Notes under the pieces: model-generated
Databases searched by the model: none
What the model was told of the DNA's origin: nothing
The model's input: the letters and a program-made list of their open reading frames with translations, nothing else
Program-made: the position numbers and the translations under genes
In this document: positions 1-31,834 of the stretch, piece after piece
Numbering within the stretch: position 1 is the first letter of the stretch
Layout: the number at the start of each line of letters is the position of its first letter
Assembly: GCF_026210795.1 (NCBI RefSeq)
Contig: NC_089433.1
Location: 3,224,001 to 3,288,000 of the forward strand
Direction of reading: 5' to 3'
DNA from: Rhizophagus irregularis
Lineage: Eukaryota
Length of the DNA stretch: 64,000 bases

Positions 1-2362
1 TTTGGTTTAAAATGGTTGAACAAAATCTTAAATCCCTAACGAGTTCTGTATATGAAAAAATACCGTCAAAGAATGAAGAAACAATTTTCAAAAACAGGAA
101 ACTGGGTTACTCCGAATTAAAATTCCTCCCTAAAGATAACAAAGGAAATCTGAGACCTATTGTTAACATGAAACGCCCGATGCGTACTTCCAATAATATA
201 AAGTGACCAAAATCAATCAATTTCATATTAAATACGACGTTTCAGATCCTTAAATACGAAAAAGTAAGTTTATTAAATAATTTGAATTGAATGTTATTGT
301 AAATATTTAAATATTAATTATTCTTTTTTTTTTATTTGGTAGGAAAAAAATCCTTCATTACTAACTGGGTCTATATTCAATTATAACGAAGTTCATGCTT
401 GTTTAAAAGAATATAAAAAACACTTATCTAATGATGATAATCCACGACTTTATTTTGCTAAAGTTGATATTAAATGTTGTTTCGAAACAATTGATCAAAA
501 TATTCTTATGGAAATAATCGAAAAAGAAGTTCTTACTGAAGTTTGTACAATAATAATTTCTTGTTTGCATAATATAATATCTTTTTTTAATTTACTAATG
601 ATGATTTTTTTAGTACCAATACTCAGTGAATAAATTTGAAGCTATTTATCTAAAAGGTGGAACTATTTATAGAAAACGTGATAACTTTGTTCATGATTCA
701 AGTAAAAGTTTTTCAACACATTATTTATTGTACTTTAATTTAATTATTTTATTTTTTAAATTTATTTTGTTTTTATCATATATATATATTTAGGTGAATT
801 TTTATCTTTTCCGAAATACAGCGCCAAATTAACTCAAAATTATAAAAATGCAATTCTTATTGATAATGTGTATGAATCTTATATGGAAGTAGAGGATGTT
901 CTTGAATTGTTGAAAGAACATATTCAACAAAATATTATAAAGGTAATAAATACAAGTGAATATTATTTAAATGATTTATTTAATTATTTTAACTGATTAA
1001 ATTTATTAATATAGGTTAATGAAGAATATTATAAACAAAAAGTCAGCATTCCACAAGGATTGGTACTATCATCCTTATTATGTAGTATATATTATGGAGT
1101 TATGGAGCGAGAAGAATTTAAATATATCATTAATGACACGAATGGGGTAAGTATTTTTAAATATTATACTTCAATGTACTTACTGATATATTTAATATTT
1201 AATTAATATTATAATATTATTTAAATATTATTAGTTACTATTGCATTTCCTTGATGATTTTTTGTATATAAGTACAAACAAAAATAATGTTATAAAATTT
1301 ATCACAACAATGCACCAAGATGATTTAAAGTATAAAATCGTTGTAAATGATAAAAAAAGTATGGTAAACTTTGATTTAACTGTTAATAATAATAAAATAA
1401 ATAAAGTTGATGGTTATGGTACGTATTTGCTATTTTATTTTATTTTATTGATTATTTGTTTTATTAATTGTATTGTAAAATATTAACTGAATTTTAATAA
1501 GAGTTCCTGTGGTGTGGAATATTAATTGATACTCGTAATTTGGATGTCAAAGTGGATTATTCAAGATACAGCGATTTATCCCGTTAGTATTCTATAATTA
1601 ATTCAAAAACTATTTATTAATTTACTTATTATTATTTATATTAAATTAGATATTGCTAACATTTTAACTATAAAATCGATAAAGACCCCTGGTACATGTT
1701 TAAAGAAAAAAATGATTGAGTAAGCACTATGATTAATATTATGCAAATTATTAATTTTGAATTAATATAAATAATTATTTATTCAGAATTTTGTTAGCAA
1801 AAAGCCATAAAATTTTTTATGATACTTCGCTAAATACAAGAGAAACTACCCTATTAAATATATACCAAAATTTTTTAATGGCTGGAATGAAATTCCACCA
1901 CTGTATAAAAGGAATGCCTAGACAAAAATCCCAAAGAAATAAAGATTTCGAATTTGGTAAATTTTGATTAAATTTTAATAAATTTAATTATTATTTTTTA
2001 CTATCGCAATTTTTTTGTTATTATTACAGAAGTATTACATAATGCTATTGATCATTTATATTTAGTATTATGTAAAACTGATGCATCAAGTAGATATTCC
2101 TTTAATATAAATAAAAAAGAATTTATGTGGTTAGTGTTGTTATAATTTAAATTTATTTTTATCATAAATATTAACTTCATATTTTTTATTATTTAACAAT
2201 AAGGCTCGGTGCTAATGCTTTTTATTACATTTTAAACAAAAAACAAAGCTATCATAAGTACTTTCACATTTTAAAAAATTTCTTGAAAACTCCCAGTTAG
2301 ATAATTTAAATCATATAGTAGATTGTAAGTTATCATTAATTTTTAATAAAATAACATTTTAA
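1..2362 (+). pseudogene. TERT: Telomerase reverse transcriptase (TERT/Est2), RT domain plus C-terminal extension; 5' part lies outside the window; probable pseudogene
   Basis: Predicted exons <1-263, 343-540, 614-701, 794-942, 1015-1146, 1235-1418, 1502-1581, 1650-1718, 1787-1956, 2030-2129, 2204-2362 give TERT motifs in order: 1 (SELKFLPK), 2 (LRPIVNM), A (LYFAKVDIKCCFETIDQ), B' (YKQKVSIPQGLVLSSLLC), C (LLHFLDDFLYIST), E (FLWCGILID), then FYDTSLNT..LLNIYQNF. In-frame TGA at 204-206; apparent frameshift near 2256. Confidence 0.9.
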
Positions 2363-2461
2363 GTTTTGGTATTGTTTAATATTATTTCTTTTTTATTTAT
2401 TTAAATGAAATAATCTTATGATATTAATTAATTAGTAATACAATAGTGAAATTATAAAAAA

Positions 2462-3309
2462 TTATAAATCCATATTATATACAATATTAGTATGATATCT
2501 TGATTGTAATTTAATAGAACTAGTACAATTATCCATTTTTTTAAGTTCACCTTTTACATCAATTGGAATAAAAAAAGATTTTATACCAATCAATAAACTT
2601 TTTTTAACAAAATCAAAAAGTTTATTTAAAGAAACTTTGTCATTTTCAAAGGATTCTTTATGAACACAAGAAATATGTGTTGCAAGAATTTGTCTACAAT
2701 AATCTTCAGTAATAATTTTATCTAATAGGTTTTCAAATTCTTCTAATCCGATACTTCTAAAAAAGATTGTTAAATAATAATTTACTAAAACAAAATAAAC
2801 TAATATAAAAACTTCAAAACCGCATACCTAAAATGAATTTCAAGGTCCTGAGCTTTCTTTACTATAATACTCTTGTAATTATATCTAAAATCTGAAAATT
2901 TTCCTCTGCAAATATTGATATAATCTTTAAGTTGATCAGGATTAATTGTAGGATCTATTGTTTTTAGTAATACTTCTAATAAATTATCCGAAGGGTTCCT
3001 GACTCTAAGAAAAAGTAATTTTAGCTCATCTATCAGAATCTTGCTAAATTCTCCCTTTATTAGAAAATTATTAAAAAGTCAATTACAAAAAGTTTAAAAA
3101 TATTAAAATTTGCAAATTTCTTTCTTTACCTTGTCCATCTTTATATAAAAAGTACGATCATACAATGTATAACAAAGATGTGTGATATGAATTTTTATTC
3201 ACGGGCTGAGACTTTGGTAGTACAAAAGTTTTTTTAGATTTTTTGGGACAGATGAAATTGGTAATTCGTCCAACCTATTTTCTTTTTTATTTTTAACAAG
3301 ACGCTTCAT
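2462..3309 (-). pseudogene. Three-exon hypothetical gene, probable transposon accessory protein, with an in-frame stop
   Basis: ATG 3309; exons 3309-3130, 3054-2828, 2756-2462 joined by GT-AG introns (MKRLVKN...SP*IKIH...MDK|GEFSKILIDELKLLFLRVRNPSDNLLE...NMDL*). In-frame TGA at 3199-3201. The LF..xNPSD segment weakly resembles the gene at 21971-24111. Confidence 0.6.
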
Positions 3310-3889
3310 TGTTCATTGTTGTATTGTATTTTGTTAGGATCTGGGCTTATTTTGAAATATTTTGGTTTCAAAAAGTATTACTTCAAAAAAATTATTTTTT
3401 CGTTTTCTTTAATGAAATAATATCCATTTGTTGAAATTGACCGATATAAATTCAAACAACATAAAATTATGTGCATAAAAATTTTGTTTAAAGTCTACCC
3501 GCTAAAAGTGTTTATTTACAATTCATAAATAAAAATTTAAATTATTCCAATTATCGTATGCTTTTCAAAGTCAAAATCTTCTATATCAGGACCATTGATA
3601 AAATTTCTGTGCAAAGCTTATTTCGAAGCTTTGTGAACGATATGTAAGAAATATGTGATATATCAAAATGATATACAATTATCATTGGTTGATCCATGAT
3701 TGTGTAATCTGTATAACCAGCGTGTAACCTATAAGATCTTTTTAGTTTGTTTTTTTCCTCACATTCTTTATAGGCGTATTCTCTCTTTATTAAGAACTTT
3801 TAGGCGAAAACTTGTAAGTTTAAAACTTATCTCGTTTCTTAATTCTACAAAGTTTAGATCGAGTTTAATTTTTTCTCTTTCTTAGATAG

Positions 3890-4895
3890 TTTTTCACTTT
3901 CTTGTAAGTCAATTAACGCGTTTATTATTCTTATTTTTTTATTTTTTAAACATGTTTTATTACTCTTATTTCCTAACTAAACCACGTTGATTTATTGCAG
4001 GCGGGTTCTAACTTCCCATTTTCTCCTCCCTTTCTTTGCTTTCTTATTTCATTCTTAGGTGTAATAACGTTATTGTTGTTATTTTTCACTTTCTTGTAGA
4101 CGGGTCCTAACTTTACATTTCCTCTTTGTAAGTCAATTAACGTGTTTTATTATTTTTTTAACATGAATTTTGTTACTCTTATTTCACTAAACCACATTCA
4201 ATTTTGCACTTTCTAACTTTCCATTCTTTTTTTTGCTTTTTTAGGCGACTTTCCTTCATGCCTTTCCCTTTCTCTTAATACCCATTCTTCTTACTTTCAC
4301 CTTCCTTACTTTATGTTTCAAAAGGAAATTAAAGACGTTAGAAACAAAACGGGTAGATTTGCAAGGTTTCCTTGCGAAATTTTTTTTTTTTTCAATTAGA
4401 ACGAATTTCTTTAAGCAAGTTCTTTTAGGCGATATCATAAGATTCCTTTCAAACGAAGAATCTGTAATAATGGTAAATTTTATTAATATATTTGGGTTTT
4501 TTTTTATGGAGAGCAATTTTCTTTAGGTTTTCATTCTTAGATGTAATAACGTTATTGTTGATATTTTTCACTTTCTAGTAGACGGGTCCTAACTTACATT
4601 TCCTCCTTGTAAGTCAATTAACGCGTTTTATTATTTTTTTAACATGAGTTGTTACTCTTATTTCATTAAACCACATTCAGTTTTGCACTTTCTTCTAACT
4701 TTCCATTCTTTCTTTGCTTTCTTAGGGGACTTTCCAATTTCTTTAAGCAAGTTCTTTTAGGCGATATCATAAGATTCCTTTCAAACGAAGAATCTGTAAT
4801 AATGGTAAATTTTATTTGTATATTTGGGCTTTTTTTATGGAGAGCAATTTTCTTTAGGTTTTCATTCTTAGGTGCAATAATGTTATTGTTGATAG
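3890..4895. repeat. Imperfect direct duplications (unit of about 480 bp plus a partial third copy)
   Basis: TTGTAAGTCAATTAACGYGT at about 3902, 4126 and 4607; TTAAGCAAGTTCTTTTAGGCGATATCATAAGATTCC at about 4411 and 4743. Confidence 0.8.
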
Positions 4896-4959
4896 AATTG
4901 ATATTTTTTACTTCTTAGTTTTTTTTAGATGAAATGGGATTTTGTTTAATTATTTTAAT

Positions 4960-5750
4960 TATGTATATTAATATAATTATGAACAAATAAAAATAACAAG
5001 TACATTATTTCAATAAATTAGTTTTGATTTTTATATCATATATATAGTATATAGTATTGTATACATATAAGTAAATATAAAATTATAATATAATTAGTAT
5101 ATTATTTAAATACATTTATAATATTTAAAATATATTCATACGAGTTTCAATTTATATGATATATATATTGTTTATATATAATTACTATATTATATATCAC
5201 ATTAAAAATATATATTAATTATGTATTAATTATATATATATTATATTATTTTAAATATAACAAATATATTGTATCAATATTGTTAATATAATATTTATAA
5301 TATTTAAAATATATTCTTAAGAGTCTCAATTTTATATTATTTATTTATTATTCATATATAATTATTATATAACAAATATATATATAATATATTAATAAAT
5401 ATATTTTAAATATATATATACTAAACATTAAATATATATATACTATATATTTAATATATGTTAAATATATTATATATATATTATAAATATATTATATATA
5501 TATATTGAATATACAAATACTATATCCTAAATATATATATATAATATATTAATTATATAGTATTTATATATTTAATATTAAGTATTTATATATTAAATAT
5601 ATTATTTCAAATATAACAAATATATTGTATTAATATTGTTAATATATATTTATATATTTAAAATATATTCTTATGAGTCTCAATTTCATATTATTTATTT
5701 ATTAAATATATATAATTATAATATTATAAAAATATTGTAAAAATATTTTA
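4960..5750. repeat. Extremely AT-rich low-complexity tract with internal duplications
   Basis: Almost only A/T; TTTAAAATATATTC..GAGTYTCAATTT recurs at about 5124, 5303 and 5657. Confidence 0.8.
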
Positions 5751-5756
5751 AAAAAT

Positions 5757-7521
5757 CAGAGATTTCAGCAAAGAAGGAAAACTCGACAGATCTTATATTA
5801 GATATTGCCAGTATATCTCGTTATCACCATATTACTGACTCCCAATTCAAAAAGATCTTCACAGCTTCAACTCTTAGGCAACAAAACAATATTGCAAAGG
5901 AATATGGTTTACAAACTAGATTGCCAATTCTTGATCAACTTCAACGTGAATGATACTTGCAGTCACCACAAGATATTTATCACATAATAGCCGGGCAAAC
6001 ATTAAAACTACTAAAAGTAACAATTTCCATGTTATCTCCAGAAGTTGAAAGAAATTTTATTAGTGTCTGGAAATCATTTGAATACCCTCGTCAATGGTCA
6101 AAGCTTCCAAATCCTATTAGTCATATCGAAACTTTTATGATGTCTGATCGACTTCGATTGGGAATGGTAAAGCCATTTATTTTAAATAGATCGCTGACCA
6201 TTAATTGTTTAAAGCCACAAGAAATAGAAAAACTACAAGAGCGAACAAACATGAATCGCAATCAAGTAATTTCTAATATTATTAAGTGCTGGGCAACTGT
6301 AGCTAAATATTCCCAGTTGGCATTTAAGATTTCGTTAACAAAGGATGACTATATAGAGCTTGAAAATTATTTGAATAAAGAACGAAAAGCATTGATTGAG
6401 GTAAAATTTATAGTTGTTACAAAAAAAAAAATATTATAAATTTCAATTTTATTAGGCCTTTGAAACCAAAAAAGAATAAATTCCTTACATTTGGGTAATT
6501 TGGATTCAGTTCTACTAACTATGACTATGTTATACTTATTTATACTTATTACAGTTATCCGATGAATTCGTGGATCTCCCTAACCTTCACGCTAATTACC
6601 ATTTATTGCGACATGCAAGAATATTCAGTACTCTTACAAATACGGCAGTCAGAATAAAAGAAATGGTCCATCATATCTTTAAAAACATAGTTCCACATAC
6701 AAATTTCAAGAATATTGAATTAGACTTATTAAAACGGTATACAACTAAACCTTACAATCTATTCGGTATTTTGTAGATGGTGGAATTGATCCTTAAAATT
6801 TACGATCTAGTGTTGAATTTATGAATTTATCTCAAAATTCTGATAGCTTATTCAAAGATTGGTTTATTATGGAAAATTCAGAAATGAATAACGAAAAACT
6901 AGAAGGTAATATTAATTTCTTTATATAGTTAAAGTATATACATTCTAACATTTTTTATTAGTATGTTTACAATCTAGTGAGTTTCGGAATATAGTATTAA
7001 GAAAGCCAGCATCAATTCGCAACACGAATATTGGAATTAATACAATTTCGTTTCATTCTGATTTGGCTCTTGCATATAAAAGTTTTGGATATCACGCATC
7101 ATTGATTAATAAGGCTTGTAATTTTTACGAATATGTATCTTACATCCAAGTTGTGCAAAATGTCGAAATCCAATGTCATTTGAATAAGGGCGATATAGTG
7201 ACGATTAAAGAGGTTGATTATGGGGAAAGTTATGCGGTTATCAAAGGTATTTTTAAACACCAGAACAATGATGGATATTATTATCCATTTATTTATGTCG
7301 ATTGGTTTGAAGATACCTATAAGAAACACAACAAATTGGATTGTCCAATCTTCGTCCTTCGTCACGATGATTATTATTGCAAGATATTTCCATTGACGGT
7401 CATAGATAAAGTTCAGAAGGCGTATTTTGTACATGATTGTAACGCAAGATGCAAGGAATCTGATCATTTTCTGGAAAATAATCATTATTTAAAAAACGAA
7501 TTTTTTTTCGCAGCTGTTTAA
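5757..7521 (+). pseudogene. Decayed CMC-superfamily (Plavaka/CACTA-like) transposase, 5'-truncated
   Basis: Fragments SPQDIYHIIAG, WKSFEYPRQWSKLPNP and PNLHANYHLLRHARIFSTLTNTAVRIKEMVH parallel the PKLH...E..H catalytic region of the Plavaka ORF at 26590. Ends in a beta-rich, BAH-like domain (YAVIKGIF...YVDWFE...YFVHDC). Stops at about 5951 and 6794, frameshift near 6750. Confidence 0.65.
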
Positions 7522-8701
7522 TTAATACAGGTAATAGTATAATAATAAATAATGAGATTATTTTTTGTTTATTTCGTACCATGATCAAATTAACACTTAA
7601 GTTCGTTCATTTTTTATATTTTAAATTTGTTATACTTTCGGAGAACATTAATTATTTAATATTACTTATAGAATATATATTTACAATGCGAAGAATACAT
7701 GAATTTACTTTACATTTAACGTATATTTACTACAACTTTATTACATAGCACCTTTGTATTATCTATATGTTTACTTTAAATTAGCAATACTGTATATTTA
7801 CTTTTACATTTCCTATATAGTTGCTTCATAACTACTGTATCACTTCTATACATTTGTCTATATTAAATATTTAATATCGCGTTGAAAATAACATAAAGTA
7901 GCCGTACGCCTACTATGTAAGTGGTGGCAATATGGATACTACAAAGCCCCGATTTCATGGGTTTCAGTAAAGAATTTAACTAATTTTAATAAGTCACGTG
8001 GGGTGCGCACATGCGCACAAATTTTAAACCCATAATAATAATAATAATAATAATAATATATAATATATAATATATAATATATATGAATGAATATGAATAT
8101 GAATTATGATATGGTTGGCATTCGCAAAGTGAAATCATGATAGACCTGGCGCAGATGCATTATGCATTGCACAATTTAAAATTATCAGTTATTTATACGG
8201 GCTAATCTAAACGTCTCGAATTTTTGAAGAGAGATACTGTATAAAGCCAAATGTAATTAGACTAATTCGATAGAAAAAGAAGAAACAGTCCATGTGTTTA
8301 TTGACAATACAAATAATTAGATATTGAAAACAGTTTGAAGAACTATTATTCTGGTTTATGCTAATCATATAGTTTCTATACCAAGTTTGTAAGTCTTTAT
8401 TAAAGACAATAAAGAAATAAAATAAAATAAAAATTCCGTGTATATTAAATTGCATTAAATTAACTGCGCCTCAAAATTCTCCATGAACAAATTATAAAAG
8501 TTAAAATCAGTTAAGCAAGCTTGTTACATATAGAATAAGCATAAACATGAATAAAGATATACTATAGATGCAGAATAAATGATGTATAGATGCGGAATAA
8601 ATGATATATAGATGCAGAATAAAAAATATACAGATGCGGAATAAAAATATATAGATAGTTACAGAATGAAAAAATTAAAATTAACATAAATAATATTTAA
8701 T

Positions 8702-10569
8702 TCATTTAGCCCTCTTCTCGAAAATGATTCCATTATTACTTGGGAGTGCTACAGGACCTAACCTGAATTTATCCTCAATTTTACCACTTTCTGTACGGAT
8801 ATTATAATTTAAAATAGCATTATGCATAAAAAATTTAATTTCATTTATAGCAAGAAATCTTCCAGGGCACCTAAATAATTTATGATATTTAATTAGATTG
8901 ATATTTTATATTTGTTTCAAAAATAATTAAGTTGAATATTATTCTTACATATGTTTACCACCTCCAAATGTCAGGAAATTTCTACCAACTTTTGATGCTG
9001 GAACGTTATGTCTATGTGGTTCAAATGATGTTGGATTTGGACCTTGTAGTGATTCATCATGATAAGTATCGTAAGAATAAATATCAACTACATGACCTTT
9101 TGGTACTTGCAATCCATTAGAAAATGTGTGATCTTTTAATACCCAATGTGGAAGTGCAGCTACATCTCCGGTAAATCTTAATGATTCTCTAATAAAACTA
9201 TCTAAATTTTTCATTTCTTTAAGTGATTCAAATGGAAGTATACCATTTTCATCAGTCTTTTTATGAATTTCCAATTGTTCTTCATACAATTCTTGCATAT
9301 ACTCAGGTCGAGATGCTAAATCCACAACAACATTTGCACAAGCTCTTGATGTTGAATGAATTGAAGCAAAAATAAATATGCTTAAATTACTTGCCAATGC
9401 AGTATAATTAATATTATTGGGGTCAAAACTTTTTTGTTCCATAAAATCTTGAAGTAAATCAGTAGGTCGCTTCCATGAATCACCATATTTTTGTTTCTCT
9501 CTTAAACGCTTATCAACTTGATGTTTAACATGTTTAATAAGCGTATTTACATGTCTAGTTACCGGATTATACAACCCTAATCTTATTGGAATACGTTTAA
9601 CAAAATCTTGAAGACCCGGAAAAATTAAATCAAAAATTGGAGGAATTAAAAAAAATACTGCTATATCTTTTGTAAATTCCGCGAAAGTGCTTATAACATC
9701 ATCATATTCTGATTCCTCCTAAGAAATAAAAAATCAGAAAGAAAATTTTAAAATTTTAACATATTTTTTTAAACAAAATCTCACAATATTACTTACTTCA
9801 CCAATAAAAACATTTGCGATAGAAGCTGAAATAATTTTTGTTATCGCAGAATAAATATTATAAATTACTTTTTGATCATTACAATCACCAATGTGTTTTT
9901 GAGTGGCCAAATAAAGTGATTTTTGTATGCGTTCAGTATATAAATTCAATTTATTTGAAATAGATGATCCTCTAATCATTTTTCCATAAGATCTTAGATC
10001 GCCAAAATTATCAATACTCGTATACATGACATCACCAGGTATCATTTTTCTAAACAGTACCCCAAAATCAAACACGTCACTTCTTGAGAGTACTTCATGC
10101 GTATATTCTTTTCCTATAAGTATGGTATAATATTAATTCCGCATCACTGAAATGTTAAATCAAAAAATACGGATAACTACTTTACCAACAAACGTAATTG
10201 TTCGACCCCATATATATAAACTAAACATTTCACCATACTAATACAGTAATTTAAAAAAAAGTTTATATTAATGAAGTAAATAAATTTAATGCGCTATTTT
10301 ACCAACCTCTTTTCTGCATTGACCAAGGAATTTTTCACAATTAAACGTATATCTAAACGTATGTCCAATAATTGGAATTTTATAACGAACGAGTGGTGGC
10401 ATATTCTAATGAAAAGAAAATTTTTTTAAGAAAAGGAGCGTTTCCAGTAAAATTTTATTTATAGTAATATTAGTATTAGTTAATATATTACCAATTTTGG
10501 ATCACGCGGATGCTTTAAAATATAGAGCGTTGTCAATAAAATAAATCCTAAAACAATGGTTTGAAACAT
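8702..10569 (-). CDS. Cytochrome P450 (fungal CYP512/CYP503 ent-kaurene-oxidase-like type), six exons
   Basis: ATG 10569, N-terminal membrane anchor, PP..IPIIG, I-helix FASIHST, ExxR (IRESLR), heme motif FGGGKHM|CPGR split by an intron, stop TGA 8702-8704. Frame appears intact. Confidence 0.92.
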
Positions 10570-12299
10570 TTGAAAAAAAGATTGATTAAAAGCTTGTTTT
10601 AAAAAAAAACAAAGGGTAAAAAAGCCAAAATTTAAATTTATAATTTTTGGATACTTTCCATGATATATATTGTATAAAGATCGATGCAATATGATTTCAA
10701 TTTTGCAGTCTATCATTCGGCACAATTAGGCCTTGCCAATTTAAAAGTTCGTTTAACATGATCCCCCAAATTTTATGAATTATTAAATTGATGGAAATAT
10801 TATATTCCGGATACGGAATATTTCATGGTGCAGCCGTGAAAATCATGATATTGCATGTGAATAATCATAGTAATTTATTTGAATTATTTAAACGGGACCG
10901 AACATGGGTTTAAAAGTAAAGATCATATATTTAATATTGTACTGAGAAAAAAATTAATATTTTAATACATTCACATATGTATTTAGTTAAATAAGAAAAA
11001 AAAAGAATTTTCGTTAAGTGTTATGGCAAGTAGTGCTTCGATTCGTTTACGGATTGATCCCGGATTGTCAGATTTCGGATAACTTAAAATATATCCGAAA
11101 CCAGTGATCGGAATTTAACAATTAAAGGCTTGTTCCGATAGTAGCATTGCGCATATAATGGTAGGACCGAAATGATTTTCATTAAATAATAATTTTGAAG
11201 CACTAATGAAACATGAAACATTCCTAATTTGCCGATCATTGCCGATCATTAAATTTATACGCGGTAAATAATAAATTTTAATAAATAGATATATGAAATT
11301 TATTAAAACAAATTAAAATAAAAGTAAAAATATTAAATCCAAAAAGATTTTTACAGAAAATGTGTTAAAATATAAATAACGTGTAAAAAAATACAAAATG
11401 AATTAAAATAAACCCACTATGACGTATCACTAAATCTTGACGCGTCCATCTCTAAATTATCACCTCCTTGATTTTGTTGTTTTATTTCTATTGTCAGGCA
11501 CCGTCTACTAAATTGAACCATATAAAACTGTAAATAAACATTTTATGTTAAAATTTTGTATGTTAATAAATACAGTAGATAAATTTAATACGTACAATCA
11601 CATTTTCTTAATTTTTTGAAATTTTTACATGCATATCTTTTTGATGCGTTATGAAGAAATTCAAAATTACATTAATTTCCTTATCACCAACCACGAAAAG
11701 AGCTGGGAAGGGCGGAAGATTTTTAAAGAAATATGAGCTTAAGTAATTAGTTAAATCTGTTACGGGTGTCTTTTATCAAGTGTTTTACATATTTAAACAG
11801 ATGATTATTTACTATTTATTTATGTATAAGTTTTCAAAATTTATATAATTTTGAAAACAAAATGAAAATGTAATAATATTTTTTAATAAATTGAAATAAC
11901 TCCTTGAATATTATTACTTTTTAGTTAATTGTTTTGATAACTCAAGCGATAAAAATGATGATACTATACATTTTGTCCCAATGGAAAAATAAATCATTTC
12001 GGAATCTCCGTATTGAGAGGATCATTCTGATACGATGATTATCTCCTTGATATTTAAAACACATCAAATAATTCGATAGATTTTTTTGTGCCGAAATGAT
12101 GATCATATCCTGGAATGCATTAGATCATTAACAATCAAAATTTGTACGTTTTTATGGGTTAGTTAGTGCATTTTTATGGTTTAGATTTTGCATTTTAATC
12201 TAACCATAATCCAAATTGGGAAAAAAAGGTCTCAGATAATTTTATATATATGTTAAAAAGTATAGCAAAACTAGGAACCCATTAATAAAAATAAAAGTA

Positions 12300-13261: not shown

Positions 13262-15500
13262 ATGTTTGCTTTAATATTTTTCGCTATTACATTTGGTTTT
13301 ATTATTAATTTCATTCGTAAATTTAATAAAAAAACCTGAAGGTCTTGAGAATATTCCATATATTTCATTTATTTCTTTATTAAAAATATTGTGGGCTTAT
13401 TTCCAACAAAAAAATTACGATGAAGTTGAAGATTTAGTTCAAGAACTTATAGGAGGTCATCATGATATTTATTTGGTAATGTCACATGATACGCTAATTT
13501 TTCTCTTATTTACAATTATATAATTATATTTACTTTTATTAGAGTCAGTTCGGCATTGTTCTCAACAATCCTGAATACGCTAAAATTTTATTAACTGAAT
13601 CAGGTGATTTGTTTTTTTTAATGTTGAAACATAACAAAAACTTTCCTTTAAATAATTAAATTACTTTTTAGAGGATGTTGCTATCAAGTACTATTCAAAA
13701 ACTGATAATGTTTTTTTTGATAAATTTTTCGGATGTGGTTTATCATTAACTAATGGAGACGTGCGTAATCTCGACTTCGATTTTTATAACTTAATTTTGT
13801 TGATTCCTAAGTAAAATCGTTAATACTTAAGTAAAATTAACAGAAATGGAGATCTACTAGAAAATTAGCGGATTCTGCATTAAATCTTGCTTCACATCAA
13901 TATCCAGAGGTTGTTGGTGAAATTACAATGGATCTTTTTACTTTCATGAACCCAAATTTAAATCGACCAATTAATATAATCGAACCTATGCGACGTATTT
14001 CAATTGAAGCATTGGGAAAATTTGCCTTTGGATATAAGTTTGGGGTAAGGGTTGGAAAATATTTTTGTATATTTTTTTTATAATTATTATTTAACTTATT
14101 AAAAAAAATTATTTTAGTGTTTAGAGTCTCAAGAAGTTCCTCGTCTCATAAGTGTTTATGAATATATTGTTTCAGTTCTTGGATCTCCTTTCCGTCGTGT
14201 ATTTCCATGGATAAGTGAATTACCTTTAGAATCTAACAAAAAATACTTGGATGCTATTAAAGAATTTGATGGATTCATTAATGATATTATAGAGACGAAA
14301 AGAAATGAGATGAAGAAAGATTCTTATAATGGTCATGATTTATTAACGAGCATGATAAAACAAGGAGAAATTAATATTGATAAACATCAATTGAGAGATG
14401 AGATAGCGACCTTTTTTACTGCAGGACATGACAGTAAGTAATTTAAAACTGCGCGTTATCTGTTATAGTGCGTATTAGGACATAAAGTTTTTCGGGAACA
14501 GAAAATTATATCCATGAATTACGAAGATCTTTATTTAAAACTTTTTAAAAAATTTTTTTAGCCACTACAACGGCATTGAGTGTTTCGCTTTATTTTCTTG
14601 CAAAATATCCAGTAAGTAGTAGAATTTGCGGTTGATTTTTCAAAATTTACATCTTTTTATTAATCTTTTTGTAATTCAAAATGAATAGGAAATGCAAGAA
14701 AAAGCACGAGCAGAAGTAATCCGTATTCTTGGTAACGAACCAATTATACCAAGTTTAGATCAATTAAAGGTACTATTAAATCATTACAATCATTTATTTG
14801 TTCCCACATTTCACGATTTTATTGTATTTCATCCAAAATCATATATATTAATTATATACTGTATGTCTGTATATAACTATATATATATTAGGAATTGAAA
14901 TATGTCAATGCAATTATTAAAGAAACTTTACGAACCCATCCACCGACACCAATATTAACTGTTAGAAGATTAAAGAAGCCAATTAAGGTTGGCTCCTACA
15001 TTTTACCAATAAACTCTACATGTATGATAAATACTTGGAAAATTCATCGTGATCCAAAATATTGGGAAAATCCTAATCAATACAACCCTGAAAGATTCTT
15101 ATCAAGTGACGAAAAAAGAGACAAATTTGCTTGGATTCCTTTTTCTGCTGGTCCAAGAAATTGGTATATATAGCAAATACTTTTTTTTTTACAAATATAA
15201 AATAATTTTATCATATTTTAAATTTTAAATTTTTCTTAAAACATTTTTATAGTGTCGGACAAAATCTCACTTTATTACAACAAAGAGTTGTTCTTTCAAT
15301 GTTCCGTAAGTAAAGTATATTTGTATTGTTTTATTTTGTTCATAGTTAAGTTATTTAATATCATTTCTATTAAAGTGCTCAGATATAAATGGGTCCTTCC
15401 TGAAAATAACGTTAACAAGGACAAAATATTATTAAGGTCTCATTTTTTACTAACTCCCATTGATATAAAACTTGTGTTTACTGAAAGAATTAATGAATAA
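13262..15500 (+). CDS. Cytochrome P450 (CYP3/CYP4-clan-like), multi-exon; N-terminal frameshift as assembled
   Basis: I-helix FFTAGHDT, ExxR (KETLR), PERF, heme motif FSAGPRNC|VGQN across an intron, stop 15498-15500. The ATG at 13262 (MFALIFFAITFGFII) runs into TGA at 13337 unless one base is removed, e.g. from the A7 run at 13328-13334. Confidence 0.85.
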
Positions 15501-17740: not shown

Positions 17741-18120
17741 ATAAGCCAATCAGCATTTAGATTTTGAGGAGTTGACATCTTTGTTCTCTCAGTGCTGCAG
17801 CGAAGGCGTGTTTTAGGTTTTTAATTTCTTTTTTACTATTTATTTTATTTTATTTCTATTTCATCTTTTTGCTTTACCTTCAACTTTGTAATTCTGGCCG
17901 GAATTATGTGATCGTTGGAAAATATTCCCTCTACTGTGTATCAACTAGCTCTAGATAATTTAATATAAATGAGATCATACTGTGTATCAACTAGCTCTAG
18001 ATAATTTAATTTAAATGATGAAAATCTCTATCTATAAAAAGATAAAAAGTCAACAGCAATTAAAATAACCACAATTCTTAAACTTTGAATATACGAAATT
18101 GTTTTTTTTTTCTCTTAAAA

Positions 18121-19985
18121 ATGTATCAAGCGATCATTTTGGGATCCCTTCTGTTTATAACGCTTTACATTTTAAAGCGTAAGCGTGAACCAGAATTGGT
18201 AAGATAATTGATTTAAACAGAATTTTATCGCTTTTTCTCCTTTTTCTCAATTTTATTTTATTTTATTTTCTTAGACCATGCCGCCACTTGTTTCTTACAA
18301 ATTCCCAATTATTGGCCATACTTTTGATTTTTTTTTAAATCCCGAAAAATTTCTTAAACAATGTAGAGAAGAAGTTCGTATATCAACGAATTTTTTTTTT
18401 TTTTTGGCGTAAAAATTCAATTAACGTTAATTATTAATTATATATAATAGTATGGTGATATCTTTTGTCTATATATATGGGGTCAAGTGAGAGTATTTGT
18501 TGGTATAGAGATTGCTCGTATTTTTTTTTGCATAAATATAAAATATTTTATATATTCTAATTTATAAATTCTTTTTAATTACTGCACAAACTTGTAGGAA
18601 AAGAACATTTTGGTGAAGTATATTCAAGAGATGATGTGTTTGATGTTTTAAAAGCATTCAACAAACGATTTCCGATAGATGTATTATGTCCAGATTTGCT
18701 GAAAGTTTCACCAGTTGCACCAAAAACACTTAAAGACACGATCTTTAGCAAATTAAAACTTTATTCTGATCGTATGCAAAAAAGGGTTTATTTATCAACT
18801 CAAAAACATTTTGGAGATTGTGATGAATCAAAAATTTTTTATAATCTATTTGAAATTGTAACAAAAATTATTTCTGATCCTATTGCAAATATTATTATTG
18901 GTGAAGTAAGTATAGATACTTTTTTTTTTATGATACTAGTTAATTTTGAAAGAAAAAAGTTTTAAAAGAAAATTACTTCTTTTATAGGAGGAATCACAAC
19001 ATGAAGAAGTTTTAAATTCATTTGCAAACTTTATAATAGATAGCATGATATTTTTAACTATTCCACCATTTCTTGATATAATTTATCCAGGACTTCAAGA
19101 ATATGTTAATCGTATTCAGATAAGATTAGGATTATATAATCCAGCAGTTAAACATCGAAAACCACTCCTTAAACATATAGAAAAGCAAGTATGTAAACGT
19201 TTACAAGAGAAAGAAAAATATGGTGACTCTTGGAAACGTCCTGATGATCATCTTCAAGATCTAATGGAAGAACATGATCCTAATAATATTAGTTGTCCGT
19301 ATCTTTTAGACAGAATATATCTAATCATTTTTGCATCAATTCATACAACGGCAATAGCCATTACAAATGTTATTTTAAGTTTAGCATCAAGACCCGAGTA
19401 CATGCAAGAATTATATGAAGAACAATTAAAAGTTCATAAAGAAACGAATGTAAATGGTATAATTCCATTTGAAGCTCTTAGTGATATGAAAAAATTAGAT
19501 AGTTTTATTAGAGAAACATTAAGATTAAGTGTAAATGTTGCGGGAATTGACCATCTCGTAAAGAAAGATTATACGTTCTCTAATGGATTGCAAATACCAA
19601 AAAATTGTATAACTAGTATTTATATTGATGATGTTTATCGAGATGAACCAAAATCATTTGAACCATTCAGACATTTAGATATAAATGTAGCATCAAAAGT
19701 CACTAAAAATTTTTTGACATTTGGAAATGGTAAACACACGTGAGTATATTTATGTATATATGTATTGTAGTACAGTAAGTCAACAACTCAGTTATTATTA
19801 AATTATTTAGATGCCCTGGAAGACAACTTGCTGTAAATAATATTAAATTTTTTATGCATAACGTTATCTTAAAATATAATTTTCGTACAGTAAGTAGTAA
19901 AATTGAAGAAAGCAGAGGAACGGGTTTTACGGCATTACCAGTTGAAACAAGTACTGCTGGTGTGATTTTTGAAAAGAGGGTTTAA
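18121..19985 (+). CDS. Cytochrome P450, paralogue of 8702-10569, six exons
   Basis: ATG 18121 (MYQAIILGSLLFITLYILKR), same intron positions as the minus-strand P450, FASIHTT, IRETLR, FGNGKHT|CPGR, stop TAA 19983-19985. Confidence 0.92.
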
Positions 19986-21970: not shown

Positions 21971-24111
21971 TTATTCACTACCCTTATCGCTATCAGTATT
22001 CTCAATATTGTCATTTTCTTCTAAATAATACCTCATTTCATCTTCATTATTGTAATTTTCATTTTCAACATCATTTAAATCAATCTCCTGATCGTTAAAA
22101 AATTCTATATCACGTTCATCATTATCAGCACAATTAATTGTATTATTTTCCGAAGGTTCTTTACCTTCAAGCTAATTTAATATATATGTATAATTATTAT
22201 TAAATTTAAAAGTATCAAATTGAATAAAAAAAATTACCCATTTCTGTACAATTGGATTAGAATCCCATTGGTTCATTCGCTCCTGTACTTTTGAGGATAA
22301 AATTTCAATTGATCGTAAGTTAGATCTAAAAACATTAATGCTACTATAACACCAAATTTAACATTATTTTCGTTTTGTAACTCTTCTTTATTAAAAGCTC
22401 TTTGTAAGATAACTTCAATAATACATGGTGATTTTTGATCGCTATCGTCTATCTTCTTCCAAAGATCGTGCCTTGCTTTTATAATTCTTTCAGACTTTTT
22501 CCACTGTACAATCTCTGTAGGGCTAGCAAACTGATCAAGCTTGTAAGAAAACAAATTAAAGATGTTATAAATAGCATCTTTTATTTTTCGAACATAAAAA
22601 CTCCTATGGTTTCGAAAATATTCTAACATCTAGTATATATAGATAAATAAATTCAAAAGGTCAGATACTCTTATATTATTATATAATAAATGAAATAAAA
22701 CTAATAGACGAAATAAAAAACATACAATTGAATGCATAGCCTTCCACAAATTATTCCATTCATTTGAATTGACAAGCTCCTGCATCTTCTGAGGGAAATC
22801 CGCTTGAACTTGTAATTTAAAAGCCTGTTCAACTTCTGTATCTGATGGGTTCTTGTTTACTTGAAACAATTTATGGCAAGCTGTTGTCATCGGAGCCTAT
22901 CAATGTAGATGAGTTAAATTATTAAAGGTTAACGTTAACAAAAAATTTCAATTGAAAGTCCATTTCGATACTAACATCCCACCACATGTGCTTCGTATCT
23001 CTTCTTTTCAAATATTGTTTTGTTTGTTGAGTCATCATAGTTGGTCCTGATGTTAAGGTTGTAAGAATATTTTGCAAAAGTTTTTAATTCTCAAGAACTT
23101 CACGTTTTAATTCCTCATTACTCTTTTGCAAATTATCAATTGTTATACGTTGCGCCAGCTGCTCTTCAAGTACCTTTTCAAGAGTAGATTGAATGCTTGA
23201 ATTAAGTTTGAAATCTAATTAGTAATACAAGAAGAAAAAAAAATTAATATTATAATTTTAACGTCATAATTTGCATACGATAATAATTGCTAAAAAAACT
23301 TACGTTTTGTTAATAAATTGTTCTGTCCTGATTCTTCTGGTTTCTTACGCTTGATACCTTTATTTCAAATTATTCATCATGTTAGAAAATTAGAAAATTT
23401 TATAAAATAAAATAATAAAATTAGAAAAATAGAAATTAAAGGTGATATTTACTTGATATTCCTGATTTGATAGCTTCGGATGTAGATGATGGCAATAGGG
23501 AATTAGAAATGCCTTTTACTGATTCTGATAAAACAAATCTCGTAGATTGATGTTGAGATTTGTCTGATACTGATCGGCTTTCTGTTATTCTTGCAGATGG
23601 TTTGGCTGAACTAACGTGAGTACTACCTGTATTAAATTCAATTGGATTATGTAATTCCAATTGTTCATTTGACCTTTGAATCTGTTATTAAATAATATTT
23701 TAGTAATAAATAATAAGGTAAATAAACTAGCAAAAAACATACTGGTTTTTTAGTGTTAGTTAAATTAACTTCAACATCTGGTAGTTGTATATATGGAAGT
23801 GGCAAATTTTGTGGTATCGTATTCTGCGATGTGGATGTTTGTGTAGATACAACACCATCCTTCTGTTTTTTAGTGATAACATTAGAGTTCCTAGTCTGTA
23901 ATTTAAAGATAAACAATATTAAATAAATATATAATTTATCACAAATAATTTTAATAAAGTTTACCGTAGATAGGCGAGATGATTTTTTAGTTGAAGACTT
24001 GTTAAACATGTCTCTAAGAGATAAAGGTGATTCAGAAGTAGGTTTATCCACTATACTGGTAGTATTATCAGTTTTTTTCTTTCTACCGCGTCGTAAATTT
24101 GGAGATGTCAT
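21971..24111 (-). pseudogene. Multi-exon accessory (TnpA-like) gene divergent from the Plavaka transposase
   Basis: Starts MTSPNLRRGRKKK (NLS-like), then S/T-rich region, coiled-coil segment, helical domain (KLFQVNKNPSD..., MLEYFRNHRSFYVRKIKDAI) and acidic tail; GT-AG introns; internal stops (e.g. 23665, 22273). Confidence 0.6.
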
Positions 24112-24517
24112 TATAAAGTTTCTATTAATTATTAAATTATTAAAAATATTGTTACTTTTCTTTTTTTTTTACTTTAAATTGAAAAAAGAAAAAGAAAAAA
24201 AAATGTAAGACGTGTAAAATATTTAAGTATTTATACAATTGATCATCAGTTCATCAATAAATTAATAATTATAATTTTCTGACAAATTTAGAAAATAAAA
24301 CAATTACAACAATCATTACGTACATTTTGTTATATTCAATAAAACTTAAAGTGTATTGTTACATTTTACCTTTTACACCATAGTGTATTGTCGCAATTTA
24401 CTATTTACTCCACGGTATACTGTCACATTTTACTTTTTACACCCATTAATAGTTTTCTGCTTCTAATTAATAATTATAATCAATATTGTAGTTCGAAAAT
24501 TTTTAACTTAATAGAAA

Positions 24518-27500
24518 ATGTTTACTTGCCCATTTCAACAATGTCAAAGAACCTTTTCACGTCGACCTGCACTTCGTGAACATACAAAAACACATCAAGG
24601 TCAGGCCTATTGGGAAATATTAAACAGAATTACGGAAAATTCTCATAATATTGTGGAAGATATAAGAGTTGATTATTCTGACGAAAATATAACATTTGAG
24701 ATGGTATTTTTTTAAAAATTTTTTATTTGTGATGTATTTTTTTTTTTTTGATATGATCACAAATGTAATGTAACTTATATTAATTATTTGTACAACGATT
24801 TAATATTATAAAAGGAAGATGAACATGAAGATAATTTTACCGTAAACGAAATTTATGCCATAGATGAACATGATGTAGATGAATATGATGTAGATGAACG
24901 TGATGTAGATAATACTAACGAAATATTAGAATTTGAAGTTGAAGAAGAACCCAATTTTGAACATATCAACAATTATATCTTACGGATTCCTGAAATAACC
25001 TATCAAATAACTTCAATTGATACAAGATCCGTTTCAGATCATAGTGTTCCTCAATTTCCTGATACTGCTTATGCTGAATTTATGAAACTTGTATCAACAC
25101 ATCACTTTTCTAATTCAGCTGGAAACGATATATTAAAGTGGTTTCGAAGACATTATCTCTGAGAAAATGTAATTTTACCAGCAAATACTACACAAGGACG
25201 TGAGTTTGTTAATTCTATGAATATAGAACATTTATTATATCTCAAAACAAAAATATTAGAATATGAAAATGAAGAGTATTATCTTCATCATCGTCCCATT
25301 TTTGATGCTGTTAAAGAACTTTTATCCAATGCTGATATTCTGAAACACTGTCAATGGGATTTTTTACCAGAATATATTGTTAATAATGATGATGGTCATC
25401 ATGAACGTGTATATGGAGAACAATGGTCTGGGATGTGGTGGGAACGTATCCAAAATTTACTTGGAACGAGTGTGAAAAAGGTTTTATCCATAATTTTATA
25501 TTCTGATGCCATCACACTGGACCATCTTGGTAAAAGTTCAGAACATCCTGTTTATTTATCATTGGAAAATATTCCCAATTGGCGTAGAAATAAATGTGAT
25601 GCAAAAGCTTTGCTGGGTTTTTTACCTAAATTAAAACAAATTCACAATCGCAAAGATAATAAAAAAAGTTTTGCATCTGCTAAAAGAATGTTATATCAAC
25701 ATTGTTTTGATATCATGACAAAACCAATCTATGAAAAGTTAGAAAGTGGCTTGGACATCGTAACTGATAATCAAATAATTTGGGCTTTTCCGTTCCTTTC
25801 TGAATTCATAGGTGATCTACCTGAAGATGCTGCATTGACTTTAACTTACAATTCTTCTATATGCAAGCGTCCATGTCATATTTGCACTATCACAATTGAT
25901 GAGTTGAATAAACCTGATTTATCACATTCTCAAATAGAATTGCGAACACCCAATAATATGCAATTTATTCTGGATGCTAATATTTGTCATGAATATTCTA
26001 TTCATCCAACAAAAAATATTTTCTGGAAGTTTCGGTAAGCAATGATGCATTTGATTAATTAATATAAATAAATAAACTAAGTTTTTTTTTTTTGATAGTG
26101 AATTAAACATTTATAGTGCTGCGGTACCAGATCGCATGCACCATTGCGATCTGGGTTTATTTAATTATCAAGTTAATTTTACTCTCAAATATATTCAATT
26201 GCATTGTGGTGAAGAAGGAATTGATGAATTTAATAGACGTTTAGCAGAAATACCACATTTTTCCGGACTCAAATCCTTTAAACATGGTCTTGGTAATATT
26301 GCACGTTTCACAGCAGCAGAATTTCGAAATATGATGAAGCAATTAATTTTCGTTATTGACGGCTTAATTATTGCAAAATATAAGTCAAATTTAAACCAAA
26401 ATCAAGTGAAACAATGTGATAAAAAACTTGTTGATTTATTTTTATCATGGAATAAGATGTATATTTTTAGTCGTAAAGATACCTTTACAGACTCAGAACT
26501 TAATAATTTTCAGGTAAATTTATAATTTTTTAAAGTAATTTTTGAACATGAATATATTATATATGTCTAACTTTAATTTATTATAGGAAATGATTACTGA
26601 CTGGGCAAAAAAATTTCTTGCCTTATTTGCACCAATTGTAGATACTGAAATGAGATATCCAAAATTACACAATTGGTGTTACCATATTGTTACTTCTGTA
26701 CGAGAATATGGAGCAATAAATGGTTTCTCAACTGATACTTATGAATCTTTGCACAAATATTGTGTCAAAATTCCTTACAGAATGAGTAATCGTCGGGATG
26801 CAATTTCACAAATAGTCAAAATGGTATAGTTAATTTTTTAATAGTACATTATGAATTATTATAAATTATTATTATTAATAATTATTTTAAATAATATTAG
26901 GTACGACATGATAGTATTCTTAAATATCTTCAAAGGATAACATCACCTTCACCTTTTATTAAACATCGTCATCGTAGTAGTTCTGTATTAGGAGGATTTG
27001 AAGATAGTTTCGTATTATCTGATTTTAACAAGTTTGTTAATGAATATAAGACTAAACATTTTTTGGCATTTGAAGCTGAGAAGGCATTTGATGTATTAAT
27101 TGATTCTTTAAATCAATATTTCGATATGATTCAAGATATTACTGAAGATGATGTTGAAGCAACCATTATAAAATGGTATACTAATGCATTTATTGGAGGA
27201 ACTGATACTATACGAGCTAAAAGCAACTATTATAATTTACCTGCTTTTAGTAGTATTGCAATTAATATGGATGAAAGAGAAGCTGAAACATATAATACAT
27301 TTAATGGATTATGTTTCGCTAAAGTAAGTTCAAGCTTTATTATTTTGTTTGTTTATTTCTTATTATCAAAAAACTAAATTAATTTTATATAAAATAAAGC
27401 TTTTAATGCTATTTAGCTTAAAAATTCCCGGTCATGAAGAGTAAGAATTAGCACTTATTCAATGGTACGATTTTAAAAATAATAATTCACATAAACTGCT

Positions 27501-27634
27501 TAAATATGATTGCCCGTATATGAAGAGTATTTCAACATTTACCGTTATAGCAGTAGATTCTATTGTTGAACAAGTTCATATTATTCCTCAGTTTGGTAAA
27601 TCTAATGAGTATTTTATAAATTTATTTATGTTTT
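24518..27634 (+). pseudogene. Plavaka-type (CMC superfamily) transposase with N-terminal C2H2 zinc finger
   Basis: C-x4-C-x12-H-x3-H finger (CPFQQC...HTKTH); Plavaka core ERVYGEQWSGMWWERIQ, ILYSDAITLDHLGKSSEHPVYLSLENIPNWRRN, GDLPE, PCHIC, VPDRMHHCDLG, PKLH..YGAINGFSTDTYESLHK. In-frame stops at about 25160 (TGA) and 27442 (TAA). Confidence 0.85.
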
Positions 27635-30274: not shown

Positions 30275-30364
30275 GCTTCTTTAATGAGATTAGATAGATT
30301 GGTTTATATAAATTTATATAATTCTGTGATACTGCTTTAGCTAATTTAGTATTAATTAAGGTTT

Positions 30365-30595
30365 TAATTTAAAAATTAAGCAGTATCAAGGAAAATTCTC
30401 GCAAATTTTTCTTGATACTGCCTATTTTTAAAGTTTAAAGACCGATTAGTAACGAATTTAAGAAAAATTCTCACGAATTTTTCTTGATACCGCTTATTTT
30501 TAAAGTTTAAATAAATTGAAATTACGATTTTTTAAGAAAAATTCTCGCGAATTTTTCTTGATACCGCTTATTTTTAAAGTTTAAAGACCGTAAAA
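30365..30595. repeat. Palindromic subterminal-type repeat array (left)
   Basis: Units of about 70 bp containing AAGAAAAATTCTCGCGAATTTTTCTT; inverted relative to the arrays at 35870-36530 and 45200-45660. Confidence 0.75.
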
Positions 30596-31634
30596 AACTA
30601 AATATAGTGCATGTGATATTTAACCTCATTCCTTTTTTACATCAGCTCATGATTTAAACTTATTATAAATAGCAAAGCGTGATACTGTTAAGAATTTGGT
30701 CGATTTATTATTATACGATTGAGGTTGTGAACGGGATCTCAGCCATCTTTTATGAGTCAATTAAATTCAAATCTTTTGACGCCACCAGTTCATTTGATTA
30801 GATTTTATAAAAAATTTGTTTATTATTATTTATTGTATATTTTATGCTGTACATATCCGGATGTAAACTAAAAATATTTGTTTTAATATTTTAAAATAAT
30901 AACGGATTAATTAATTAACAATAATAAAAAATTTAATCAAATTATTTAATTTAATGATCAAGGCTTTTAATAATCAAGGCTTTTTAATGATCAAGGCTTT
31001 TTAACGGTCAAAGCTTTTAATAAACACGGCTTAATTTTAATTAAACATCCTTATTAGATTACAGATTTCTTCTTTTCGATGATACATATGGTACCTTCAG
31101 ATATTGTTTTTCGAATGTTAAAGCTAAGAAATCCGGATCTCAGCCCATCATCTATCTATCTATCTAATTAAAAAAATTTTGTCATATTTAGATTACCCGG
31201 TATAAATAATTTGAATTGTGTAATATTGAAAAGTGTGATATTCTTGCGTTCAATCTATTTCGTAATTATCATATCATAATTAACTAACTACGATAGCCAA
31301 TCTTTAAACTAATACATTTATAGTTAATTAAAATTTTAACTGGATTTTAATACTAACAAAAAAAAAGTATAATTTCTCTTATGCATTTATTTGCGGTCAT
31401 TTCCACTCTTTTAGTTACCACGAACCATTTCTATAATAATAATTTTTACTAAAAAACCGAAACTACCTTTTTAGTCTTTTTTTTATTAATTTTTTATCCC
31501 TCTTTTTATCATTATTGTTTCTTTTGGTTAACTTAACCAAAATTTTTTTATTCTTATTGGATTTTTTTTTAGGGGTTTTTTTTTAATCGGAATTTATCAA
31601 AATTTTGGATTTTTTTTTTAACCCAAAAAATATA

Positions 31635-31834
31635 CCCTGTAAAAAATCTGATCCGTGTTTTATCTTTCCATATTTTTTTCCGTGAATACATCATTTTAAT
31701 GGAATTTATAGCCTTAAATCATGGAAATTTTCATCTCGCTAACACGGATATCCGTGAATGTATCATTTTCACAGAATTTTTACGGAAGACATGAAGAAAT
31801 AATGGAAATATTCGGATAAAAATTTTTTATAGGG
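31635..31834. mobile_element. 200-bp MITE, CACTA/EnSpm-like
   Basis: TIRs CCCTGTAAAAAA / TTTTTTATAGGG; 3-bp TSD ATA; near-identical inverted copy at 58814-59013. Confidence 0.88.

What the first reader, a model, noticed from the sequence alone, without database searches (positions are those of the whole stretch)
1..7926. TERT may be cargo of a CMC/Plavaka-like DNA transposon
Seen: TERT ends 100 bp from a convergent gene (2462-3309) with the same CGA>TGA type of lesion. That gene is divergent from a transposase remnant (5757-7521), the same accessory-gene/transposase layout as at 21971-27634. A candidate right terminus (reverse complement CACCACTTACATAGTAGGCG) ends at 7926, and I see no matching left terminus within the window, so the element may extend upstream and include TERT. 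Inference: a DNA transposon that captured and possibly amplified telomerase.
Basis: inference. Interest (0 to 1): 0.7.

Follow-up and report, generated by a model that had tools for sequence, protein, structure and literature searches.

The report
Extra telomerase likely riding a transposon
This is a broken copy of a second, shortened telomerase gene that exists in several near-identical copies in a mycorrhizal fungus, sits tail to tail with a small orphan gene that also accompanies its sister version, and was likely spread as cargo of a DNA transposon, although only the transposon's right end has been found.

Summary
The TERT is real, broken (one stop, one frameshift) and is not the host's native telomerase. 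Rhizophagus irregularis records hold three TERT types: native (about 1,320 aa, 60% identical), type 1 (this one) and type 2 (79%). Types 1 and 2 form one clade, lack about 300 aa of linker, and diverged under purifying selection (dN/dS 0.16). Type 1 occupies at least two loci per genome, at 96-100% identity, with CpG-type decay. The convergent gene is an intact 176-aa orphan; its homologue lies beside type-2 TERT in five database records from two species. The transposase-like remnant is a dispersed repeat with a sharp right end at 7972, not 7926. No left end is in the window. Not shown: that other type-1 copies carry the remnant, the left end, a TSD, and the transposase family. Best reading (0.5): a long-lived TERT-plus-orphan module moved by a CMC-type DNA transposon and recently amplified. 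A nested second element or segmental duplication remain possible. Ten paper searches found no description.

The parts
1..2362 (+). 3' part of a type-1 paralogous TERT pseudogene; 11 exons in the window (3-263, 343-540, 614-701, 794-942, 1015-1146, 1235-1418, 1502-1582, 1650-1719, 1787-1956, 2030-2129, 2204-2362); the 5' part lies upstream of the window
   Evidence: GT-AG model, Pfam, 96-100% identity to type-1 proteins
204..206 (+). premature TGA where other copies read Arg
2255..2262 (+). frameshift in the last TERT exon
   Evidence: tblastn pieces change frame at 2258
2462..3138 (-). intact 176-aa orphan gene, tail to tail with TERT (exons 3138-3130, 3054-2828, 2756-2462); predicted all-helical at low confidence
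   Evidence: homologue beside type-2 TERT
3901..4894 (.). T-rich degenerate direct repeats (spacings about 330 and 480 bp)
5042..5756 (.). extremely AT-rich block (4-16% GC), a degenerate tandem duplication of about 360 bp, standing where the 5' half of the transposase would be
5760..5773 (-). short likeness (10 of 11 nt) of the 7972 terminus in the same orientation; possible end of a second, nested element; post hoc
   Evidence: a contig of run X13 begins at 5774
5757..7521 (+). 5'-truncated, broken transposase-like gene, multi-copy; TGA at 5951-5953; PxDxxH and PxLHxxYH...E motifs (motif meaning recalled)
   Evidence: no Pfam family
7879..7972 (.). terminal segment shared with further repeat families; element right end at 7972 (read inward: CTTTACTGAAACCC)
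   Evidence: loose ends at 7972 in 4 of 4 runs and at 7879 in 2 of 4

Best explanation
The window holds a broken copy of a second, linker-less telomerase gene that is paired tail to tail with an orphan gene and was likely carried and recently multiplied by a DNA transposon, likely of the CMC type, whose right end is at 7972. SHOWN: (a) it is a paralogue, not the native TERT; (b) it arose by DNA-level duplication (introns present) before R. irregularis and R. clarus split; (c) it lacks about 300 aa of the TEN-TRBD linker but keeps the T, 1, 2, A, B', C and E motifs; (d) types 1 and 2 diverged under purifying selection; (e) the orphan gene accompanies both types; (f) type 1 is dispersed at two or more loci per genome and decays by C>T/G>A changes enriched at CpG; (g) the downstream remnant is a dispersed repeat with a sharp end at 7972. 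INFERRED: the left end lies upstream of the window, so TERT is inside the element; the present copies moved non-autonomously, since this transposase lacks its 5' half and close copies share its stop; selection acted on the element lineage rather than on a fixed host locus, since no database model of either type is full length. SPECULATIVE: the benefit would be telomere addition, with the host's telomerase RNA, at breaks left by excision or at the ends of an excised copy.
For: Three TERT types. Types 1+2 form a clade, 100/100, apart from native TERTs; window vs native 60%, vs type 2 79%. Origin from the R. irregularis native gene alone is rejected, AU p=2e-6. Linker 30-39 aa against 280-401 aa in Rhizophagus and Funneliformis natives. 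dN/dS 0.16, pN/pS 0.25 (95% 0.17-0.36), 154 codons, L001 vs L002. Native TERT is followed by phosphoglycerate kinase in Funneliformis; no PGK in the window. Distinct type-1 copies in one named assembly: OCT59_018479 and OCT59_009112, native at OCT59_030134; also CAB4475098.1 and CAB4475361.1. 21 of 21 true variable sites among type-1 copies fit a C>T/G>A change, 11 of 21 at CpG against about 15% expected, p=7e-5. Loose ends at 7972 in 4 of 4 runs (1, 4, 3, 4 contigs; agreement 0.57 where several); close copies of the remnant differ by 0-3%, like the TERT copies. No inward-facing match to that end within 3 mismatches in 1-7958. Nearest named Atlas clusters for the remnant: Plavaka (12% of members), DUF4218 (13%), RAG1_ZnH2; leads only.
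Against: No call shows a second type-1 TERT joined to the orphan, to the remnant or to the 7972 end; 3139-5744 was not tested for copy number. The last 94 bp are shared with other families, so the different flanks at 7972 need not belong to TERT-bearing copies. The transposase's 5' half is missing exactly between the module and the remnant, so a deletion or insertion may have joined unrelated parts. No Pfam, PDB, fold or in-window profile hit identifies the remnant. The end begins CTTT, not the CAC/CCC recalled for CMC ends. The orphan has only 3 clusters in 1.84 billion proteins, the named ones all Rhizophagus, unlike a widespread transposon accessory gene. Type 2 looks like one locus per genome shared with R. 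diaphanus, which also fits a host gene pair. Adjacency rests on accession numbering, not on DNA.
Confidence: 0.5

Rival explanations
1. Nested elements: TERT and the orphan are cargo of a second element whose right end is near 5773 and which inserted into the transposase of the element ending at 7972. TERT would still be transposon cargo, but the remnant would be the target, not the vehicle.
For: 10 of 11 nt match to the 7972 end, same orientation, right where the AT-rich block meets coding sequence (about 0.002 by chance per 60 nt, post hoc). A contig of run X13 starts at 5774. It explains the missing 5' half of the transposase.
Against: The likeness fades after about 17 nt and reads as plausible coding sequence. 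No loose-end cluster at 5773 among the rows shown; one X4 contig diverges at 5780 (105 rows not shown). Four other one-mismatch matches occur elsewhere in the window.
Confidence: 0.2
2. Host gene pair spread by segmental duplication or ectopic recombination in TE-rich chromatin. The paralogue was a host-selected second telomerase, recently copied passively; the remnant next to it is a bystander.
For: The region is dense in transposons. Type 2 seems single-locus and shared between two species. Two type-1 copies lie on one contig. Such TE-assisted TERT relocation is proposed for Nicotiana (PMC7916837, passages).
Against: Copies also lie on different long contigs, at 96-100% identity, with TE-like CpG decay. 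0 of 10 type-1 models with the RT core and 0 of 3 long type-2 models are full length, so no intact host locus is apparent, though automatic models can err.
Confidence: 0.22
3. The module is carried by another kind of large element (tyrosine-recombinase, Maverick or virus-like) whose mobility genes lie upstream of the window.
For: Upstream DNA is unknown (no genome held). A TERT kept under selection would suit an element with a linear stage (inference).
Against: No relative of the TERT or the remnant in IMG/VR. The gene keeps spliceosomal introns. No such gene is seen in the window part.
Confidence: 0.08

Closest known systems
Native Glomeromycotina TERT (R. irregularis GBC53177.1 / OCT59_030134; R. 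clarus, Funneliformis, Diversispora orthologues)
   Same: Same domains and motifs, catalytic aspartates kept.
   Different: 60% identity, about 300-aa linker missing, multi-copy and broken, followed by an orphan instead of PGK. The native gene is listed as expressed (PMC8647823 supplement row).
Plavaka / CMC (CACTA, EnSpm) DNA transposons of R. irregularis (PMC11075540, passages)
   Same: Dispersed repeat with a sharp end, spliced transposase-like gene, resembling motifs; the family is prevalent in this species.
   Different: No Pfam Plavaka or Transposase_21 match in the remnant; end starts CTTT; TIR pair and TSD not seen; no TERT cargo mentioned ('telomer' 0, 'cargo' 0 in the text).
Gene-capturing DNA transposons: Pack-MULEs, enlarged En/Spm of Chondrus (PMC6431247, passages); Plavaka/KDZ with TET/JBP genes (Iyer et al. 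2014, recalled; paper not held)
   Same: Host-derived gene inside a DNA element, amplified with it.
   Different: The cargo is a whole, intron-bearing telomerase with long-term purifying selection and a fixed partner gene, not a gene fragment.
Extra TERT copies in plants (Nicotiana TERT_D and others; PMC7916837, passages)
   Same: Additional TERT loci, partly pseudogenised, TE involvement proposed.
   Different: Those follow polyploidy or one relocation; here a distinct, streamlined lineage with two subtypes and a recent dispersed burst. That paper states TERT is single copy in most eukaryotic genomes.
Penelope-like elements (Athena, Terminons)
   Same: Mobile elements with an RT related to TERT (PMC6431247, passage).
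   Different: This protein nests inside fungal TERTs with TEN, TRBD and CTE domains; it is not a PLE RT.

Membership tests
TERT | TEN, TRBD, RT and CTE domains | tested here: met
   Pfam on type-1 database copies P0003 and P0004 together; RT and CTE exons in the window
TERT | T motif and RT motifs with three catalytic Asp | tested here: met
   motif panel; the window copy has G>S and S>L in B' and P>L in E
TERT | intact reading frame and activity | tested here: not met
   stop at 204-206 and frameshift near 2258 in this copy; activity of the family not testable
Native single-copy TERT locus | orthology with TERTs of related species | tested here: not met
   separate clade; another R. irregularis gene is the orthologue
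Native single-copy TERT locus | PGK downstream, as in Funneliformis | tested here: not met
   the neighbour of the native gene in Rhizophagus itself was not seen
CMC/Plavaka DNA transposon | DDE transposase with Plavaka (PF18759) or Transposase_21 domain | tested here: inconclusive
   that part is missing; the C-terminal part has no significant hit; Atlas lead only
CMC/Plavaka DNA transposon | dispersed copies with a sharp end | tested here: met
   loose ends at 7972 in 4 of 4 runs
CMC/Plavaka DNA transposon | terminal inverted repeats at both ends | tested here: inconclusive
   no left copy in the window; upstream DNA not held
CMC/Plavaka DNA transposon | ends beginning CAC/CCC (recalled) | tested here: inconclusive
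   the mapped end begins CTTT; I found no description of Plavaka ends to compare with
CMC/Plavaka DNA transposon | 2-3 bp target-site duplication (recalled) | not testable with these tools
   needs the left end
Gene-capturing transposon | cargo lies between both ends in two or more copies | not testable with these tools
   no assembly held; metagenome contigs were 1.0-1.3 kb
Penelope-like retroelement | PLE-type RT without TEN/TRBD | tested here: not met

The most novel reading that the evidence does not exclude
A family of fungal DNA transposons has carried its own streamlined, functional telomerase and a dedicated partner gene as selected accessory genes since before Rhizophagus species diverged: telomerase, itself derived from a retroelement, returned to a mobile life, probably to add telomeres at excision breaks or to the ends of excised copies.
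Probability: 0.3. Interest if true: 0.88.

Novelty: new variant of a known kind. Interest (0 to 1): 0.68.

Why it matters
[quoted passage not shown] A paralogue kept under purifying selection, bound to a partner gene and spread in TE-like fashion would be a first case, as far as my searches reach, of telomerase as mobile cargo. It offers a natural linker-less TERT to test, a candidate new telomerase partner, and a possible cause of chromosome breakage and healing in mycorrhizal fungi. Even under the rivals, R. irregularis has an undescribed multi-copy TERT family that current annotations confuse with the native gene.

Tried and rejected
No genome held, so upstream DNA could not be read. Copy number and junctions over TERT and the orphan could not be read from sequencing runs; only 5745-8020 was laid. 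No RNA holder listed: no evidence either way. Metagenome scan: 2 short loci. Prokaryote genomes: 1 unrelated weak hit. IMG/VR: nothing for TERT, the remnant or either end motif. Search for longer relatives of the orphan: none. Exact look-ups of 3 window ORFs: 0 of 3 found. Structure models were poor (pLDDT 52 and 41); fold searches of the remnant gave nothing; the orphan model was not searched. Atlas on the orphan: no usable hit. In-window profiles and pairwise tests did not place the remnant significantly. Rfam on 1-12000: 0 hits; no telomere arrays and no template-like word in the noncoding DNA of 2363-5756. CACCAC-type end rejected. An N-terminal extension of the orphan from 3309 is not needed but not excluded. 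Seven look-ups in earlier findings gave nothing that bears. Paper searches found no account of extra TERT in Rhizophagus or of TERT as transposon cargo. The supplement of PMC10234402 and file 1 of PMC8647823 could not be read, and subscription papers are not searched; any of these may bear on novelty. PMC3212892 and PMC10085805 (passages) were irrelevant.
Full report
IDENTITY. Window 1-2362 is the 3' part of an intron-rich TERT. Eleven exons with GT-AG introns give a protein 96-100% identical to Rhizophagus irregularis database proteins, which places the window in that species. It has one premature stop (204-206; Arg in the 8 of 10 models that cover it) and a frameshift near 2258. No genome was held, so everything upstream is unseen.

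THREE TERT TYPES. A full-length search gave 29 hits among 7,992 scored candidates. R. irregularis has a 1,320-aa TERT with orthologues in R. clarus, Funneliformis and Diversispora; this is the native gene, and it is listed among expressed genes in a supplement row of PMC8647823. Two shorter types exist beside it: type 1 (the window) and type 2 (also in R. diaphanus). On 901 columns of 17 sequences, types 1+2 form a clade (100/100) inside Glomerales TERTs; window vs native 60%, vs type 2 79% (short fragments and distant hits left out). An AU test on 10 sequences rejects origin from the R. irregularis native gene alone (p=2e-6), but cannot choose between a split before Rhizophagus/Funneliformis (p=0.70) and one on the Rhizophagus stem (p=0.34). 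Both types have a TEN-TRBD linker of 30-39 aa against 280-401 aa in Rhizophagus and Funneliformis natives and 133-183 aa in three outgroups, and keep all RT motifs. Two metagenome contigs, one of each type, give dS 0.89, dN 0.14, dN/dS 0.16 over 154 N-terminal codons: the lineage coded for a selected protein for a long time.

NOT THE NATIVE LOCUS. In Funneliformis, TERT and phosphoglycerate kinase have consecutive tags in three records, and a fused model puts PGK 3' of TERT. The window has no PGK.

COPY NUMBER AND DECAY. Named records show two different type-1 copies in one assembly (OCT59_018479, OCT59_009112; native OCT59_030134) and two on one contig in another (CAB4475098.1, CAB4475361.1). 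Of 27 variable columns among 10 models plus the window, I dropped 6 as splice or model artefacts; all 21 others fit one C>T or G>A change, 11 at CpG (expected about 15%, p=7e-5; codon context from the window only). This fits the CG methylation of repeats reported for this fungus (PMC8647823, passages). None of 10 type-1 models with the RT core and none of 3 long type-2 models is full length; automatic models can err.

THE CONVERGENT GENE. It is a 176-aa, three-exon gene from 3138 to 2462 with no stop. Only 3 clusters in 1.84 billion proteins match it; named members are all Rhizophagus. All 7 NCBI models start at the Met matching 3138, so the TGA near 3200 is most likely outside the gene. Its homologue (78-86% identical) neighbours type-2 TERT by accession or tag: RGB23614/RGB23615 (R. 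diaphanus), CAB4493581/CAB4493580, 15224_t/15223_t, CAB4413175/CAB4413178, CAB5208551/CAB5208554. TERT and orphan have diverged to a similar degree, as a unit. Its function is open; the model is helical at pLDDT 41.

THE REMNANT AND ITS END. 5757-7521 is a spliced, broken gene with a real Mucoromycota family in the Atlas (0.98; recognition score below the reliable level) and nearest named clusters Plavaka, DUF4218 and RAG1_ZnH2. Its PxDxxH and PxLHxxYH...E words resemble those of the three CMC/Plavaka transposases in the window, but no scored test was significant. Contigs of four runs from four studies laid on 5745-8020 show many variant copies, mostly transitions, the closest 0-3% apart, and loose ends at 7972 in all four runs with unlike flanks (105 loose-end rows not shown). 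Listed contigs cross 7926 unbroken. The stop at 5951-5953 is kept in most of the depth of X4 and X11; a diverged relative reads CGT. The last 94 bp are shared with other families, which limits what the flank count means. No inward-facing copy of the end occurs in 1-7958, so a left end is upstream or lost.

THE GAP IN THE ARGUMENT. Between the orphan and the remnant lie T-rich repeats and an AT-rich tandem duplication (5042-5756), and the transposase's 5' half is absent. I could not test whether other type-1 copies run through this stretch. A 10-of-11 likeness of the terminus ends at 5773 and one contig starts at 5774, which raises a nested-element rival. Either version makes TERT cargo (0.5 + 0.2; 0.78 with other large elements); segmental duplication keeps 0.22.

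MECHANISM. Most likely: TERT was duplicated as DNA on the Glomeraceae or Rhizophagus stem, lost its long linker, became fixed tail to tail with the orphan and entered a DNA transposon (inferred). Selection kept the master lineage intact while single copies decayed under methylation (inferred). Type 1 spread recently, probably mobilised in trans (inferred). A benefit through telomere addition at excision breaks is speculation; no telomerase RNA was found in the window part.

COMPARISON AND NOVELTY. Plavaka/CMC elements are prevalent in R. irregularis (PMC11075540, passages and one supplement), gene capture by DNA transposons is known (PMC6431247, PMC5751038, passages), and TERT is single copy in most eukaryotes (PMC7916837, passages). 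Ten searches showed no report of extra TERT in Rhizophagus or TERT as cargo; the genome paper PMC10234402 (passages) mentions telomeres only, and its supplement was unreadable. Verdict: new variant of a known kind, interest 0.68.

Noticed in passing
window 8772-10571 (-), 13275-15500 (+), 18119-19909 (+): Three cytochrome P450 genes right of the element; the first and third are 68% identical and inverted.
   Followed up: no
window 24531-27634 and 21971-24112: Plavaka transposase (PF18759, E 7e-35) with an in-frame TGA at 25160-25162 and a divergent unknown gene; not homologous to the TERT neighbours.
   Followed up: partly
window 31635-31840 and 58808-59013: 207-bp inverted pair, 95% identical, 27 kb apart, enclosing two CMC-type transposases (32271-34976 +, 50930-53679 -); may be the ends of one large element or two MITE copies.
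   Followed up: no
window 54297-54334 and 55580-55617: 38-bp inverted pair (89%) around internal tandem repeats; a possible small TIR element.
   Followed up: no
window 30344-30603, 35912-36538, 45216-45573: A palindromic repeat family with about 73-bp units, in three places.
   Followed up: no
protein P0072 (RGB32189.1, R. diaphanus): A third, 61%-identical homologue of the orphan on another contig; may mark a third TERT module.
   Followed up: no
proteins P0034 and P0069 (Funneliformis geosporum): Two native-type TERT records, each beside PGK, on two contigs.
   Followed up: no
window 40561-42760 (-) and 55571-56815 (+): Long ORFs (582 and 415 aa) with no Pfam family above cut-off.
   Followed up: no
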